64,000 nt of DNA, from assembly GCF_055900595.2 (NCBI RefSeq), contig NZ_CM148325.1, one strand, 5' to 3'. Position 1 is the first letter of the stretch. Each line of letters begins with the position of its first letter. Shown here in pieces: positions 31,115-37,196 of the stretch. The notes under the pieces were generated by a model, which made no database searches, was not told the origin of the DNA, and saw only the letters and a program-made list of their open reading frames with translations. The position numbers were made by a program, and so were the translations under genes.

Positions 31115-32149
31115 ATGAAAATTCGCATAATGCTATTTATATTAACGATGATGGTTATGCCTGTGAGCTATGCAGCATGTTATAGTGAGTTATCTGTTCA
31201 GCACAATTTGATTGTTCAGGGGGATTTTGCACTTACTCAAACACAAATGGCAACATATGAGCATAATTTTAATGATTCGTCATGCGTGAGTACAAATACT
31301 ATCACCCCTATGAGCCCGTCGGATGTTATTGTTGGACTTTATAACGATACCATTAAATTAAATTTACATTTTGAATGGACCAATAAAAACAACATCACGT
31401 TGTCAAATAATCAGACCAGTTTCACCAATGGTTATTCGGTAACGGTGACACCTGCGGCCAGTAATGCAAAAGTGAATGTTTCTGCGGGGGGCGGCGGTTC
31501 AGTGATGATTAATGGTGTTGCGACATTATCCAGTGCTTCATCATCGACACGCGGGAGTGCTGCAGTACAATTTTTACTGTGTTTATTCGGTGGCAAGTCA
31601 TGGGATGCATGTGTAAATAGCTACAGAAATGCATTGGCACAAAATGCAGGTGTCTATTCCTTTAATCTGACATTGTCATACAACCCGATAACCACAACCT
31701 GCAAACCGGACGATTTATTAATTACTTTAGAGAGTATTCCCGTTTCACAATTACCTGCTACAGGTAACAAAGCAACAATAAATAGTAACAAAGGGGATAT
31801 TGTTCTGCGTTGTAAAAACTTATTAGGTCAACAAAATCAAACATCACGGAAAATGCAGGTGTATTTATCAAGTTCTGACTTGTTAACCAACAGCAACACA
31901 ATACTGAAAGGTGCGGAAGATAATGGTGTAGGATTTATTCTTGAAAGTAATGGTTCTCCAGTCACACTTTTAAATATCACTAACAGCAGTAAAGAATACA
32001 CAAATTTAAAAGAAATTGCGGCAAAGTCAATACTTACAGATACAACGGTTTCAATTCCGATAACTGCCAGTTACTACGTCTACGATACAAATAAAATTAA
32101 ATCTGGCGCACTGGAGGCAACCGCATTAATCAACGTGAAATACGACTAA
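31115..32149 (+). CDS. yehA: Fimbrial tip adhesin-like protein YehA
   Basis: 344 aa, signal peptide, two-domain adhesin-like fimbrial protein. Confidence 0.85.
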   Translation: MKIRIMLFILTMMVMPVSYAACYSELSVQHNLIVQGDFALTQTQMATYEHNFNDSSCVSTNTITPMSPSDVIVGLYNDTIKLNLHFEWTNKNNITLSNNQTSFTNGYSVTVTPAASNAKVNVSAGGGGSVMINGVATLSSASSSTRGSAAVQFLLCLFGGKSWDACVNSYRNALAQNAGVYSFNLTLSYNPITTTCKPDDLLITLESIPVSQLPATGNKATINSNKGDIVLRCKNLLGQQNQTSRKMQVYLSSSDLLTNSNTILKGAEDNGVGFILESNGSPVTLLNITNSSKEYTNLKEIAAKSILTDTTVSIPITASYYVYDTNKIKSGALEATALINVKYD

Positions 32150-33715: not shown

Positions 33716-33988
33716 ATGTCTCATACAATCCGTGATAAACAGAAACTGAAAGCGCGTGCCAGTAAGATTCAGGGCCAGGTCGTGGCGCTCAAGAAAATGC
33801 TCGACGAGCCGCACGAATGCGCAGCTGTTCTACAACAGATTGCTGCTATCCGTGGCGCGGTAAACGGCCTGATGCGCGAAGTGATTAAGGGGCATCTGAC
33901 GGAACACATCGTTCACCAGGGGGATGAGCTAAAACGTGAAGAAGATCTGGATGTCGTTCTGAAGGTGCTGGATTCTTATATCAAATGA
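33716..33988 (+). CDS. rcnR: Ni/Co-responsive repressor RcnR (CsoR/RcnR family)
   Basis: 90 aa; conserved H-C-H-H metal-ligand pattern of the family. Confidence 0.92.
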
Positions 33989-34097
33989 AAGTGCCTAATA
34001 TGGCCGTAGTTGAGGCAATAAATAGAGGGACAAGTGACGTTAAGCTGAATTAGAGTAAATGGCGTGAGGACACACGCCATTCGAGGATATAGTTTGA

Positions 34098-34412
34098 TTA
34101 ATTTTCGAAAAATTGCTTCACAGCCCAGCCACCATGACCACCTGGAGTTATGAATGAAACAAAACCTTTGTCATCGACGCTCTGGATTTCTACTGTCATT
34201 GATTCATCTAACACGCGACATTTATTGGATGTAATGAGACTCAGCATAGCCTGTTGGTCATTGTCCTGAATGTAACTGATCATCTCGTAAAAGTCAGTTA
34301 ACTTTTTACAGTTAAATGTACCTTCTTTAAGTGTTGCGCTGTCTCCGTGACTTAGTGCGAATGCATTTGGCATCATTGCCACAAAGATGACGGTAACGAG
34401 TAGTTTTTTCAT
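34098..34412 (-). CDS. Small secreted protein, unknown function (signal peptide, 2 Cys)
   Basis: 104 aa, MKKLLVTVIFVAMMPNAFA signal peptide; low-GC context; function not recognisable by eye. Confidence 0.6.
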   Translation of the reverse strand: MKKLLVTVIFVAMMPNAFALSHGDSATLKEGTFNCKKLTDFYEMISYIQDNDQQAMLSLITSNKCRVLDESMTVEIQSVDDKGFVSFITPGGHGGWAVKQFFEN

Positions 34413-34421
34413 TGTAGCCTC

Positions 34422-34769
34422 TTATAATTCAGAACATTCACTGATGTTGTAAGTGCCTTTTCTACCATCATCGTTTACGAGATGTAGCACGAAGATGATG
34501 GGATTGGCATCAATGAAAGATACAGAGACGTTCCCGCTTTCGGTGCTATACATCTTTGCAATCTGTTTTTCACCAATATATGAAAGATCCCAACTCACTC
34601 CGTTCAAGCTAAAATGCATCTGTTTGCCGTCAATATCGATGGAGGATTGTGCCGTAACGGTTTTCCCATTGCTGCCAATTTGACCCTGCTGAAGAGCATC
34701 ACATTTATAGGAGCTTGCATAAGTAAATAGAGGTAGTAGCAGAAGTGCAGCAAAAATTTTACTCTTCAT
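34422..34769 (-). CDS. Small secreted protein, unknown function (signal peptide, 2 Cys)
   Basis: 115 aa, MKSKIFAALLLLPLFTYASS signal peptide; tandem with the 104-aa ORF 9 bp downstream. Confidence 0.6.
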   Translation of the reverse strand: MKSKIFAALLLLPLFTYASSYKCDALQQGQIGSNGKTVTAQSSIDIDGKQMHFSLNGVSWDLSYIGEKQIAKMYSTESGNVSVSFIDANPIIFVLHLVNDDGRKGTYNISECSEL

Positions 34770-35137
34770 ATTTTCCCTTTGCTTGGATTTGAGTTACCTA
34801 TTTTGGGGTAGTCATTATAAAACTATTAATTAGTAAAATGAACAAGTTTTCATTTGTTTAGTAATGGTATTGTTTAGGTTTGAAATTATTACGTACTTTC
34901 ATAGCAATAGGTTGGATAAACAGCAGTTCAGGGAACAAGTTGCACTATCTACATACTTTCCCGCTTTCCATTGTATGTTAGGTAATAGATAGCCTTTGCC
35001 CGTAAGACTAAAAATATTAGAAATGACTCATTCGAATACCTTCTATTCACCTTAATATAGGTTTGATTATTGTAATCGTTTAATGTGTCTTATGGATTTT
35101 TTCCTACTTTTCATTTGCATAATATAGGGGGCACAGC

Positions 35138-35257
35138 ATGCTCTTGAAATTAATTATTAAGATATTTAAATTTTACAGCACACAACTACTTTTCGTTGTC
35201 TTATGTGTTGAACGTACTTCGAGTATAGGTAGGGTTGTATATATATTGCGTGGGTAG
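35138..35257 (+). CDS. Candidate small hydrophobic peptide (39 aa)
   Basis: ORF MLLKLIIKIFKFYSTQLLFVVLCVERTSSIGRVVYILRG preceded by TAGGGGG about 7 nt upstream; lies in the AT-rich islet; below the ORF-track cutoff; could be spurious. Confidence 0.25.
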   Translation: MLLKLIIKIFKFYSTQLLFVVLCVERTSSIGRVVYILRG

Positions 35258-35822
35258 AGTTAGAATAGAGGAGGCATCATTTATAGAATATTCAAGAACG
35301 TTAACCTGTGATCAATAAATAAAAATATCAAATGGTGTTCAAACATATTTTTCTATGAAAAATCCAGCCATCTATGATGAATTTTTAGATCCATTTTAAT
35401 TAAAGTATGATTATGAACCAATATTTAGCCAAGAATGGTGGTATAGCGCGTATCCAATGACACCGGAAAACGCATCTATGAAGTCCTTGTTTATCTCTAT
35501 AAGAGGAAATCAACACTAATAAAATATAGTGATGTAACACATCGAGCAGGTTGCTCTGATGCTGGTCTTCAACTGTGGCTTAAACAGCTATCAAACTTCG
35601 GTGTTATTGAGATGAAAGAATTATCTTTCTCAACTTTCAATCTCAAAAAGCTAGAGGAAATAGACCTTAATTATTCCACTCTCTAAACTTATCTCTTTAT
35701 TTAAAGTAAAAATGAAAATATTATGGTATCAGCTACGTGGTGGTAACTGGTGTTTATGATCATAGGTACACATATACAGGGAACCCTGGAAAACAAAAGT
35801 AATATATTGATGATTTCGTTTG

Positions 35823-36062
35823 TTATAACTTCGTGGTATCAAGTCCGGCGGCTTTGAGTCGCTCGGTAAGATTTCTCATTTTGCTGAACTCTGTACCAAA
35901 GCTGGCTTTAAGTCCTACACCTTCGCAAAACTCTTTTGCCGTGACGTTTTTAAGATGGTCAGCGTATTTGATCATCTGGAGGTGCATTTCCATCGTTTGG
36001 CTATTTCGTGGTGCGCTGCTAATGGCTTGCTTAATGTTCTCGTAGATCTGGGTTTCTGTCAT
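35823..36062 (-). CDS. Small putative DNA-binding protein (79 aa), unknown family
   Basis: ORF with a GGTGAGA RBS; central helix-turn-helix-like segment (VTAKEFCEGVGLKASFGTEFSKMRNL); AT-rich upstream region with 12-bp direct repeats. Confidence 0.55.
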   Translation of the reverse strand: MTETQIYENIKQAISSAPRNSQTMEMHLQMIKYADHLKNVTAKEFCEGVGLKASFGTEFSKMRNLTERLKAAGLDTTKL

Positions 36063-36269
36063 TTTTTATCTCACCTATCAAATTTAGATAAATAATATAA
36101 ATTAGATAAATAAGATAATCAATAGTTTTTACCATATGAATAATGGATGTGGATTGTTTCTTTTTCATTTCTGATATGGAGTACAAAATGGGGTCACAAT
36201 GAAGAAGCGATGAATGGAGGCGAGCTTGCATCTGCAAGCCTCTTCCCCTAATCTGGCACAAAATATAGA

Positions 36270-36407
36270 GATTCAACCAAACGACTCGGGGTGCCCTTCT
36301 GCGTGAAGGCTGAGAAATACCCGTATCACCTGATCTGGATAATGCCAGCGTAGGGAAGTCACGGACCACCAGGTCATTGCTTCTTCACGTTATGGCAGGA
36401 GCAAACT
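36270..36407 (+). promoter_or_regulatory. TPP (thi-box) riboswitch in the thiM leader
   Basis: Sequence AACCAAACGACTCGGGGTGCCCTTCTGCGTGAAGGCTGAGAAATACCCGTATCACCTGATCTGGATAATGCCAGCGTAGGGAAGTC... matches the E. coli thiM aptamer and expression platform; the anti-SD region overlaps the thiM RBS. Confidence 0.9.
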
Positions 36408-37196
36408 ATGCAAGTCGACCTGCTGAGTTCCGCGCAATCTGCGCACGCGTTACACCTTTTTCACCAACATTCCCCTCTTGTGCATTGCATGACCAATGAT
36501 GTGGTGCAAACCTTTACTGCCAATACCTTGCTGGCGCTCGGTGCATCGCCAGCGATGGTTATCGAAACCGAAGAAGCCAGTCAGTTTGCGGCTATCGCCA
36601 GTGCCTTGCTAATTAACGTCGGCACGCTGACGCAGCCACGCGCACAGGCGATGCGTGCTGCCGTTGAACAGGCAACACACTCTCAAACCCCCTGGACGCT
36701 TGATCCGGTCGCGGTTGGCGCACTCGATTATCGTCGCCGTTTTTGTCATGAACTTTTATCTTTTAAACCGGCAGCGATACGTGGTAATGCTTCGGAAATC
36801 ATGGCATTAGCTGGCGTTGCTAATGGTGGACGGGGAGTGGACACCACTGACGCCGCAGCTAATGCGATACCCGCTGCACAAACACTGGCACGGGAAACTG
36901 GCGCAATCGTCGTGGTCACAGGCGAGGTGGATTATGTTACCGATGGTCGTCGCACCGTTGGCATTCACGGCGGCAATCCGTTAATGACCAAAGTGGTAGG
37001 AACTGGCTGTGCATTATCGGCAGTTGTCGCTGCCTGTTGTGCATTACCTGGCGATATGCTGGAAAATATCGCATCTGCCTGTCACTGGATGAAACAAGCC
37101 GGAGAACGCGCCGTCGCCAGAAGTGAAGGGCCTGGCAGTTTTGTTCCCCATTTTCTTGATGCGCTCTGGCAATTGACGCAGGAGGTGCAGGCGTGA
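36408..37196 (+). CDS. thiM: Hydroxyethylthiazole kinase
   Basis: 262 aa; 4-bp overlap with thiD. Confidence 0.92.

What the first reader, a model, noticed from the sequence alone, without database searches (positions are those of the whole stretch)
35823..36120. 79-aa putative DNA-binding protein with direct repeats in its promoter
The 79-aa ORF has a good RBS and an HTH-like core. Immediately upstream, at roughly 36084-36113, the 12-bp unit TTAGATAAATAA occurs twice with an 18-bp period in very AT-rich DNA, which looks like paired operator or iteron sites, possibly for autoregulation. A small regulator in an eroded islet could be a remnant of a mobile-element regulatory module.
Basis: seen in the sequence. 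Interest (0 to 1): 0.45.

Follow-up and report, generated by a model that had tools for sequence, protein, structure and literature searches.

The report
Orphan RptR repressor with its operator
The 79-residue gene is an ordinary member of the recently described RptR family of tiny repressors that normally switch off phage-defence genes. The repeats in front of it are the family's known binding sites, but here the defence genes it once controlled have been lost.

Summary
The ORF at 35823-36062 (- strand) encodes 79 aa with a good ribosome-binding site. TTAGATAAATAA occurs at 36084-36095 and 36102-36113, and it is the only such close repeat in the 64 kb window.

The protein is an RptR-family repressor:
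- Pfam HTH_73, E 6.5e-31.
- 70% identical to the EPEC RptR whose crystal structure is PDB 9R2Z.
- The predicted fold superposes on 9R2Z at TM 0.93.
- All recognition-helix and dimer residues are conserved.

The 18-bp period is two units of RptR's 9-bp operator repeat. On the - strand the array reads TTTATCTAA | TTTATATTA | TTTATCTAA. The two outer units carry TATCTA, an accepted variant of the TAGCTA core, and the middle unit holds the -10 box. The array is collinear with the tested EPEC operator and is conserved in E. coli, Buttiauxella, Pantoea, Salmonella and Vibrio loci.

The gene sits at the edge of a decayed, low-GC integrative island (33987-36273) that inserted into the thiM TPP riboswitch. 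In E. coli B the ortholog heads the ecoBLmcrX restriction gene. Here that cargo is absent and a convergent pseudogene follows.

The finding is already known in kind, so interest is low.

The parts
35823..36062 (-). rptR homolog CDS (79 aa, stop codon included): an RptR / Pfam HTH_73 family repressor
   Evidence: ORF. PF24718, E 6.5e-31. PDB 9R2Z, E 2e-32. 55/79 identical to the RRDM-type RptR. AF2 pLDDT 94.6 with four helices. TM 0.93 and rmsd 1.1 A to 9r2z_B. Residues G56-T66, E25, R68, L69 and L74 are invariant in 27 homologs; A72 is conserved in at least 90%.
36070..36076 (-). Shine-Dalgarno AGGTGAG, 7 nt before the ATG
   Evidence: Read directly from the sequence.
36084..36092 (-). Operator repeat DR-d, TTTATCTAA (core TATCTA). 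It overlaps the expected transcription start.
   Evidence: Exact match. Conserved in 9 of 11 aligned promoters. TATCTA is one of four cores the RptR paper predicts to bind.
36093..36101 (-). Central 9-bp unit, TTTATATTA. It is a non-canonical core (TATATT) and contains the -10 hexamer TATATT at 36099-36094.
   Evidence: Promoter scan. TATATT is kept at this position in 8 of the 10 non-RRDM promoters (AATATT in H5 and EC581).
36102..36110 (-). Operator repeat DR-b, TTTATCTAA (core TATCTA), in the spacer between -35 and -10. Most relatives have ATTAGCTAA here.
36111..36119 (-). Degenerate outer repeat DR-a, ATTATCTTA (core TATCTT, one mismatch). It is TATCTA in Buttiauxella, Pantoea, REL606, EC20-72C-1 and plasmid S30-C.
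   Evidence: Alignment A4.
36075..36083 (-). Degenerate outer repeat DR-e, ATTTGATAG (core TTGATA). It is TAGATA in Buttiauxella and Pantoea.
   Evidence: Alignments A1 and A4.
36117..36122 (-). -35 hexamer TTGATT, 17 nt upstream of the -10 box
   Evidence: TTGAT or TTGAC is found here in 8 of the 10 non-RRDM alleles (TAGAC in O157, TTGTT in Pantoea).
33987..36273 (.). Low-GC islet that replaces the 90 bp found between rcnR and the thiM riboswitch in K-12. It is the decayed remainder of an integrative defence-type island.
   Evidence: Breakpoints against K-12. GC 30-41% against about 50-55% in the flanks. Fuller versions carry an integrase, GmrSD or HNH endonuclease genes, and AIPR.
36274..36355 (+). 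82-bp core shared by both ends of intact islands (the att core). It covers roughly the first 80 nt of the thiM TPP riboswitch (36277-36373).
   Evidence: Duplicate copy next to the integrase in strain H5 (alignment A3). Rfam TPP hit at 36277-36373, 71 bits.
35262..35676 (+). Frameshifted remnant of a gene convergent with rptR, with an HTH-like C-terminus. It shows that no cargo gene follows rptR.
   Evidence: tblastn to the partial regulator in H5 (E 1e-11) and to a Buttiauxella element ORF (E 5e-17). Six-frame translation.

Best explanation
The ORF encodes an RptR-family repressor, and the repeats are its operator.

Proposed mechanism:
- RptR forms a four-helix homodimer. Its two alpha-4 helices (T57-K61) read a 6-bp palindrome, TA[G/T][C/A]TA, embedded in 9-bp direct repeats.
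- Dimers bind cooperatively to the two canonical repeats, 36102-36110 and 36084-36092.
- As in the published DR1/x/DR3 arrangement, a third dimer probably bridges over the central unit that contains the -10 box (36099-36094).
- This occludes the -10 box and the transcription start, so the gene represses its own promoter.

Context: the gene is the leader module at the thiM-proximal edge of an integrative island that inserted into the thiM TPP riboswitch. In E. coli B the ortholog heads the type IV restriction gene ecoBLmcrX. In EPEC, Salmonella and Vibrio, relatives head type I restriction-modification operons. In this window the cargo and the integrase end have been lost, leaving an orphan regulator that is probably still autoregulated and controls nothing else nearby.

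Shown here: family membership, fold, conserved contact residues, operator sequence, phasing and position, conservation of the array in related loci, and loss of cargo.

Inferred: that this allele is expressed, that it binds these sites, and that it represses.
For: Family membership and fold:
- Pfam HTH_73, E 6.5e-31, 106.5 bits against a cut-off of 27.
- phmmer to PDB 9R2Z, E 2e-32; 9R2Z is RptR.
- 70% identity over all 79 residues to the RRDM-type RptR.
- AF2 pLDDT 94.6; Foldseek TM 0.93 and rmsd 1.1 A to 9r2z, with the next PDB hit at E of about 1.
- T57, E58, F59, S60, K61, E25, L65, R68, L69, A72 and L74 are all present, and G56-T66 is invariant in 27 homologs.

Operator:
- The paper shows by EMSA and GFP reporters that RptR binds 9-bp repeats TTTAGCTAA overlapping the -10 box.
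- Two sites suffice for binding and repression, including two sites separated by a non-binding unit.
- The paper's EMSA shows A is tolerated at core position 6 (C6A), and on that basis it predicts that TAGATA, TATCTA and TATATA also bind.
- The window has exactly that layout.
- The array aligns column for column with the RRDM operator and with arrays in 10 other loci, and sits at the same position in Salmonella and V. cholerae.
- In about 280 kb of surveyed loci, phased motif pairs occur at 12 of 15 rptR promoters and only once elsewhere.

Cargo and selection:
- The E. coli B ortholog ECD_02033 (WP_001318412.1, 94% aa identity) lies upstream of ecoBLmcrX, and Tn10 insertions in it are polar on restriction.
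- Homology to E. coli B stops 14 nt after the stop codon.
- dN/dS between the window and REL606 alleles is 0.03.
- The O157 allele WP_000141034.1, 78/79 identical, is listed as an RptR homolog in the paper's supplement.
Against: - No experiment exists on this allele.
- Binding of TATCTA cores is predicted in the paper from the C6A tolerance seen in EMSA, AlphaFold 3 modelling and palindromy. It was not tested with this exact site.
- Only 2 of the 4 canonical sites seen in the closest relatives survive here.
- Sister alleles at the same locus (strain 20, H5, EC581) are down to one site, so the operator may be eroding.
- With no cargo, there is no obvious selective reason to keep the repressor.
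- The only close comparison within the orphan lineage (window against O157) has 1 synonymous and 1 non-synonymous change, too few to show constraint.
- The low dN/dS against REL606 may reflect selection that acted while cargo was still present.
Confidence: 0.8

Rival explanations
1. Dead relic. The gene and its operator are leftovers of a lost defence operon, no longer under selection, and intact only because the cargo was lost recently. Any residual autorepression has no consequence for the cell.
For: - Cargo and integrase are absent, and a convergent pseudogene plus about 1 kb of debris lie downstream.
- Canonical sites fall in a series: 4 in Buttiauxella and Pantoea, 3 in EC20-72C-1 and S30, 2 in the window, O157 and REL606, and 1 in strain 20, H5 and EC581.
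- The H5 allele shows dN/dS of 0.4-0.6 against the window and O157 alleles.
- The O157 allele carries G56A next to the recognition helix.
Against: - The ORF is intact and near full length in about 548 of 5426 complete E. coli genomes, including the O157:H7 lineage.
- The -35, -10 and SD elements and two canonical sites are all preserved.
- The recognition helix is unchanged.
- This rival concerns present usefulness, not identity, and is compatible with the molecular mechanism given above.
Confidence: 0.3
2. Co-opted trans-acting repressor. The orphan is kept because it acts on other promoters that carry TAGCTA-type arrays. One candidate target would be incoming RptR-controlled restriction or defence islands. 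Another would be the island-derived thiMD promoter that lies divergently about 125-150 bp away.
For: - The recognition helix is invariant across the family, and operator cores are shared between distant islands, so cross-recognition is plausible.
- Overexpressed RptR in trans silences RRDM defence.
- In this window the K-12-type thiM promoter stretch is deleted, so thiMD depends on island DNA next to the rptR promoter.
Against: - No second phased array exists anywhere in the 64 kb window or within the flanks of 14 related loci, apart from one probable chance pair inside hsdM.
- The genome identical to the window over the islet has a single rptR-like place.
- The operator array lies more than 100 bp from any plausible thiM -35 element.
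Confidence: 0.12
3. Leader of a long operon. Transcription from the rptR promoter reads through the 1-kb gap into the two same-strand signal-peptide ORFs (115 aa at 34422-34769 and 104 aa at 34098-34412), so RptR regulates them.
For: - The ORFs are on the same strand.
- No intrinsic terminator is predicted between 35822 and 34770.
- A paralogue of the 115-aa ORF lies inside the H5 island.
Against: - The 1,050-bp gap contains a convergent pseudogene remnant.
- Conservation with other alleles breaks immediately after the rptR stop codon.
- In the fuller island of strain 20, rptR is directly followed by convergent genes.
- No RptR array lies near those ORFs.
Confidence: 0.05

Closest known systems
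RptR of EPEC E2348/69 (WP_000343040.1; PDB 9R2Z; Zhang et al., Nucleic Acids Res 2025, PMC12255303)
   Same: - 79 aa, 70% identical, with the same four-helix fold (TM 0.93).
- Identical recognition-helix residues T57-K61, and the dimer residues E25, L65, R68, L69, A72 and L74 are all kept.
- Own promoter carries 9-bp direct repeats with TA[G/T][C/A]TA cores overlapping the -10 box, about 20-50 bp upstream of the start codon.
- Located on horizontally acquired DNA.
   Different: - No type I restriction-modification system, DarTG2 or M48 gene downstream; nothing is co-transcribed.
- The cores are TATCTA rather than TAGCTA.
- Two canonical sites are separated by a -10-containing unit, instead of three adjacent sites.
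- It sits at the edge of an island integrated in the thiM riboswitch rather than between IS elements.
ECD_02033 / WP_001318412.1 of E. coli B (BL21, REL606), upstream of ecoBLmcrX (Fomenkov et al., PLoS One 2017, PMC5487053)
   Same: A positional ortholog: the same chromosomal site next to the thiM riboswitch, 94% aa identity, the same promoter and operator architecture, and the same island-derived DNA up to the riboswitch.
   Different: In E. coli B the gene is followed 47 bp later by the BisI-family modification-dependent endonuclease gene ecoBLmcrX, and insertions in the small ORF are polar on restriction. In the window that gene is absent and homology ends 14 nt after the stop codon. The E. 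coli B allele keeps sites a and b (adjacent), whereas the window keeps sites b and d (18 bp apart).
C (controller) proteins of type II restriction-modification systems
   Same: Small dimeric autoregulators encoded at the head of restriction genes, binding repeated operator sites in their own promoter.
   Different: C proteins are classical Xre/cI-type HTH proteins that bind sites of about 15-20 bp across two major grooves, and they can activate as well as repress. This protein has no sequence or fold match to them.

Membership tests
RptR / Pfam PF24718 (HTH_73) | Significant sequence homology to RptR over the full length of about 79 aa | tested here: met
   PF24718 E 6.5e-31, profile positions 1-70 of 71. 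9R2Z E 2e-32. 55/79 identical with no gaps.
RptR / Pfam PF24718 (HTH_73) | Single-domain four-helix fold with a long C-terminal alpha-4 helix | tested here: met
   AF2 model has helices 3-16, 19-32, 42-49 and 53-71, pLDDT 94.6. TM 0.93 and rmsd 1.1 A to 9r2z_B.
RptR / Pfam PF24718 (HTH_73) | DNA-contact residues T57-K61, with E58 and K61 invariant and S60 functionally tested | tested here: met
   TEFSK is present at positions 57-61, and G56-T66 is invariant in 27 homologs.
RptR / Pfam PF24718 (HTH_73) | Dimer-interface residues E25, L65, R68, L69, A72 and L74; homodimer in solution | tested here: inconclusive
   All six residues are present. V24 is M24 here. Dimer formation itself cannot be tested with these tools.
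RptR / Pfam PF24718 (HTH_73) | At least two TA[G/T][C/A]TA cores in 9-bp phase in its own promoter, overlapping the -10 box | tested here: met
   TATCTA cores at 36090-36085 and 36108-36103 (- strand), 18 bp apart, flank the -10 box at 36099-36094. The array is collinear with the RRDM operator.
RptR / Pfam PF24718 (HTH_73) | Binds those repeats and represses its own promoter | not testable with these tools
   This needs EMSA or reporter assays. It has been shown only for the EPEC protein.
RptR-led defence operon (RptR followed by type I restriction-modification or other defence cargo) | Defence gene(s) immediately downstream on the same strand | tested here: not met
   A 1,050-bp gap with a convergent pseudogene lies downstream, and PADLOC finds nothing significant. 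Cargo is present in relatives: ecoBLmcrX in E. coli B; hsdMS(R) in RRDM-type E. coli, Salmonella and Vibrio.
   No Pfam hit other than HTH_73 at E<=1. No PDB fold match with E<1 other than RptR.

The most novel reading that the evidence does not exclude
The rptR-plus-operator module may be a conserved 'leader cassette' at island edges, behind which defence cargo is exchanged: type I restriction-modification with DarTG, EcoBLMcrX, or nothing. On this reading the orphan copy, retained in roughly 470 E. coli genomes including O157:H7, is kept because it acts in trans. It would pre-repress any incoming island that carries the same operator. That could ease the establishment of new restriction systems, or alternatively blunt them.
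Probability: 0.12. Interest if true: 0.55.

Novelty: already known. Interest (0 to 1): 0.2.

Why it matters
It matters little in itself. The family, its structure, its binding motif and its autoregulation were published in 2025. A 78/79-identical O157:H7 protein is in that paper's homolog list, and the E. coli B ortholog was noted in 2017.

The useful residue is contextual:
- This allele is a natural 'cargo-less' RptR with a two-site, DR1/x/DR3-type operator, and could serve as a minimal test case for the published binding model.
- The series of alleles at one chromosomal site, with 4, 3, 2 or 1 canonical sites, shows how a repressor-operator pair decays after its cargo is lost.

Tried and rejected
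- NCBIfam gave no hit for the 79-aa protein.
- PADLOC gave no defence-system hit for it. The neighbouring 104-aa ORF has only a weak HEC-01B match, E 0.019.
- PHROGs matches phrog_30666, of unknown function. However, tblastn against 50,697 phage genomes found nothing, and a scan of IMG/VR viral contigs found no relative. A phage origin is therefore not supported.
- The iteron or replication-origin reading is rejected, because there are no replication genes and the repeats match a known operator.
- PapI, Ner and Cro families are rejected.
- I looked for remnants of ecoBLmcrX or hsd genes downstream of the ORF by tblastn with all ORFs of five related loci. None was found. The only matches were a convergent regulator remnant, a paralogue of the 115-aa ORF, and a weak integrase C-terminal trace at E 3e-4.
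- I looked for a second TPP riboswitch copy in the window. None is present.
- I looked for other RptR-type arrays in the window and in related loci. None turned up apart from one probable chance pair inside hsdM in a Vibrio locus.
- The promoter table (S10) of the RptR paper's supplement could not be retrieved, because the stored file is cut.
- A literature search for a thiM-riboswitch integration hotspot found nothing relevant. This was not an exhaustive search.

Full report
**Where the window lies.** The window is E. coli chromosome. The gene order is rcnB-rcnA-rcnR, then an islet, then the TPP riboswitch-thiM-thiD-yegX-yegW. The finding lies inside the islet.

**Observation.** The ORF at 35823..36062 (- strand) starts with ATG and encodes 79 aa. 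AGGTGAG lies 7 nt upstream of the start.
- The repeat finder extends the copies to 18 nt at 89% identity.
- TRF reports the array with period 9 (3.7 copies) and with period 18.
- This is the only exact 12-mer repeated within 42 bp in the 64 kb window.
- Only 0.25-0.4% of mononucleotide shuffles of the local 24%-GC DNA give such a repeat.
- The single sigma-70-like promoter found in 35400-36500 is TTGATT-17-TATATT on the - strand (36122-36094), interleaved with the repeats.

**What the protein is.**
- Pfam gives one hit, PF24718 (HTH_73, 'HTH-like domain'), E 6.5e-31 over the whole profile.
- A sequence search of the PDB gives 9R2Z at E 2e-32. 9R2Z is RptR, the 'RMS-proximal transcriptional regulator' of enteropathogenic E. 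coli (Zhang et al., NAR 2025, PMC12255303).
- Against an RRDM-type RptR taken from a genome with the same rptR-hsdM-hsdS-darT-darG-hsdR-M48 island, the window protein is 55/79 identical with no gaps.
- An AlphaFold2 model built on 27 homologs has pLDDT 94.6 and four helices. It superposes on 9r2z at TM 0.93 and rmsd 1.1 A, and the next PDB match has E of about 1.
- The residues the paper identifies as DNA contacts (T57-K61; S60G weakens binding) and as the dimer interface (E25, L65, R68, L69, A72, L74) are all present. G56-T66 is invariant across 27 homologs from Enterobacterales, Vibrio, Shewanella and other Gammaproteobacteria.
- The O157:H7 allele (WP_000141034.1, 78/79 identical to the window protein) and the E. 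coli B allele (WP_001318412.1) both appear in the paper's supplementary list of RptR homologs.

**What the repeats are.** The paper shows the following by EMSA, reporter assays and mutagenesis:
- RptR dimers bind cooperatively to 9-bp direct repeats TTTAGCTAA, core TAGCTA, that overlap the -10 box.
- Two sites suffice for binding and repression.
- Two sites separated by a non-binding 9-bp unit (DR1/s/DR3) are bound at full occupancy.
- EMSA also shows that A is tolerated at core position 6. On that basis, with AlphaFold 3 models and the palindromy of the site, the paper predicts that TAGATA, TATCTA and TATATA also bind.

Read on the - strand, the window has ATTATCTTA | TTTATCTAA | TTTATATTA | TTTATCTAA | ATTTGATAG, spanning 36119-36075. 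The second and fourth units carry the accepted core TATCTA. The middle unit carries the -10 hexamer TATATT. The outer two units are one mismatch away from a core. The -35 element sits just upstream, and the expected transcription start falls inside the fourth unit.

**Conservation in homologous loci.**
- The array aligns column for column with the RRDM operator and with the promoters of nine other alleles: O157:H7, strains 20, EC581, H5, REL606 and EC20-72C-1, an E. coli plasmid, Buttiauxella and Pantoea.
- It occupies the same position upstream of homologs in Salmonella (3 sites) and V. cholerae (4 sites), where hsdM-hsdS-...-hsdR follow directly.
- In about 280 kb of window plus related loci, pairs of core motifs spaced by a multiple of 9 bp occur at 12 of 15 rptR promoters and only once elsewhere.
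- Canonical sites number 4 in Buttiauxella and Pantoea, 3 in EC20-72C-1 and the plasmid, 2 in the window, O157 and REL606, and 1 in strain 20, H5 and EC581.

**Genomic setting.**
- Compared with K-12, window 33987-36273 replaces the 90 bp between the rcnR stop codon and the start of the thiM TPP riboswitch. Its GC content is 30-41%, against about 50-55% in the flanks.
- In strains H5 and 20 the same site holds a fuller island. It runs from the riboswitch through rptR and variable genes (GmrSD or an HNH endonuclease, a serine recombinase, HTH proteins) to a tyrosine integrase, then an 82-bp copy of the riboswitch 5' part, then rcnR. This is the signature of site-specific integration into the riboswitch.
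- The window has lost the integrase end. About 548 of 5426 complete E. coli genomes keep the rptR end, and 167 keep the integrase end.
- In E. coli B the ortholog ECD_02033 (94% identical) is followed 47 bp later by ECD_02034, which is EcoBLMcrX, a BisI-family modification-dependent endonuclease. Mini-Tn10 insertions in ECD_02033 reduce restriction by polarity (Fomenkov et al. 2017, PMC5487053). 82 genomes have this rptR-mcrX pair.
- In the window, similarity to E. coli B ends 14 nt after the stop codon. No trace of mcrX or hsd genes is found.
- What follows is a frameshifted remnant of a convergent HTH-type gene at about 35262-35676, and then two small signal-peptide ORFs. The regulator is therefore an orphan.

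**Mechanism and status.** The most likely reading is a monocistronic, negatively autoregulated rptR gene: dimers on the two TATCTA units, probably bridged over the -10 unit, block RNA polymerase.
- Shown here: identity, fold, contact residues, operator layout and its conservation.
- Inferred: expression, binding and repression by this allele.
- Whether the orphan still matters to the cell is open. dN/dS between the window and REL606 alleles is 0.03, but that divergence may predate cargo loss. The window and O157 alleles differ by one synonymous and one non-synonymous change, and the H5 allele looks relaxed.
- A trans-acting role, or read-through into the downstream ORFs, cannot be excluded but has no positive support.

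**Comparison and novelty.** The gene works like RptR and is a member of the RptR family. It fails only the 'leads a defence operon' feature, which is a property of the locus rather than of the protein. It is not a PapI, Ner or Cro relative, and the repeats are not iterons. Because the family, the motif and near-identical orthologs are already published and annotated, the finding is already known in kind. Interest is low (0.2).

Noticed in passing
window 36274-36355 (att core), 36123-36273 (island DNA upstream of the riboswitch); L008 13735-14005; L012 15121-16590: The island integrates into the thiM TPP riboswitch. In intact islands (strains H5 and 20) the K-12-type thiM promoter plus an 82-bp 5' copy of the aptamer ends up directly upstream of the tyrosine integrase gene, on the same strand. 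thiM itself is then preceded by island DNA plus the reconstituted riboswitch. In the window the native 90-bp promoter stretch is deleted, so thiMD transcription must start in island DNA. By eye there is only a weak candidate, TTGCAT-17-TAATCT at 36227-36255. I found no paper describing a riboswitch as an integration target at this site, though the search was limited.
   Followed up: partly
window 35262-35676 (+): A frameshifted remnant of a gene convergent with rptR. Its C-terminus reads ...VTHRAGCSDAGLQLWLKQLSNFGVIEMKELSF..., which looks like a winged-helix or HTH protein. It is related to a partial 'transcriptional regulator' in strain H5 and to an ORF in the Buttiauxella element.
   Followed up: partly
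window 34422-34769 (-) and 34098-34412 (-): Two small ORFs (115 aa and 104 aa) with signal-peptide-like N-termini, annotated 'hypothetical' and 'outer membrane protein'. There are no significant family hits. The 115-aa ORF has a 42%-identical paralogue inside the H5 island.
   Followed up: partly
window 34907-34996 (+): A weak tblastn trace (30 aa, 47% identity, E 3e-4) of the C-terminus of the island's tyrosine integrase. It may be the last remnant of the lost integrase, but it could also be chance.
   Followed up: no
L003 6695-8240; L005 5887-8240; L014 5756-7301: In the closest non-chromosomal-E. coli relatives (Buttiauxella and Pantoea at 87-89% aa identity, and E. coli S30 plasmid C) rptR is not at the head of an operon. 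In Buttiauxella and the S30 plasmid it follows a DUF6538-type tyrosine integrase by 49 bp, and the operator array overlaps the integrase 3' end. In Pantoea the integrase lies about 0.9 kb upstream, with two small opposite-strand ORFs between. In Buttiauxella and Pantoea, rptR is followed by convergent genes that include a Phage_cap_E capsid-like protein. This looks like a satellite or prophage-like element, yet no relative was found in phage or IMG/VR collections.
   Followed up: partly
L007 5072-5311 (O157:H7 allele): The O157:H7 allele differs from the window protein only by G56A, at a position invariant in 27 homologs and immediately before the DNA-contact residues T57-K61.
   Followed up: no
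L015-L020 (Salmonella, V. cholerae): The RptR-led type I restriction-modification operons carry different embedded genes downstream of hsdS: GmrSD_N plus AAA_15, SMC-like ATPases, or OLD-family nuclease plus UvrD helicase. In Salmonella these sit between hsdS and hsdR; the held Vibrio loci end before hsdR is reached. The operons lie downstream of multi-recombinase integrative modules. This agrees with the published idea of a cargo-exchange hotspot inside these operons.
   Followed up: no
window about 31116-32149 (yehA; L001 217-1250): In the genome identical to the window over the islet, PGAP marks the fimbrial adhesin gene yehA as frameshifted. I did not check this in the window sequence.
   Followed up: no
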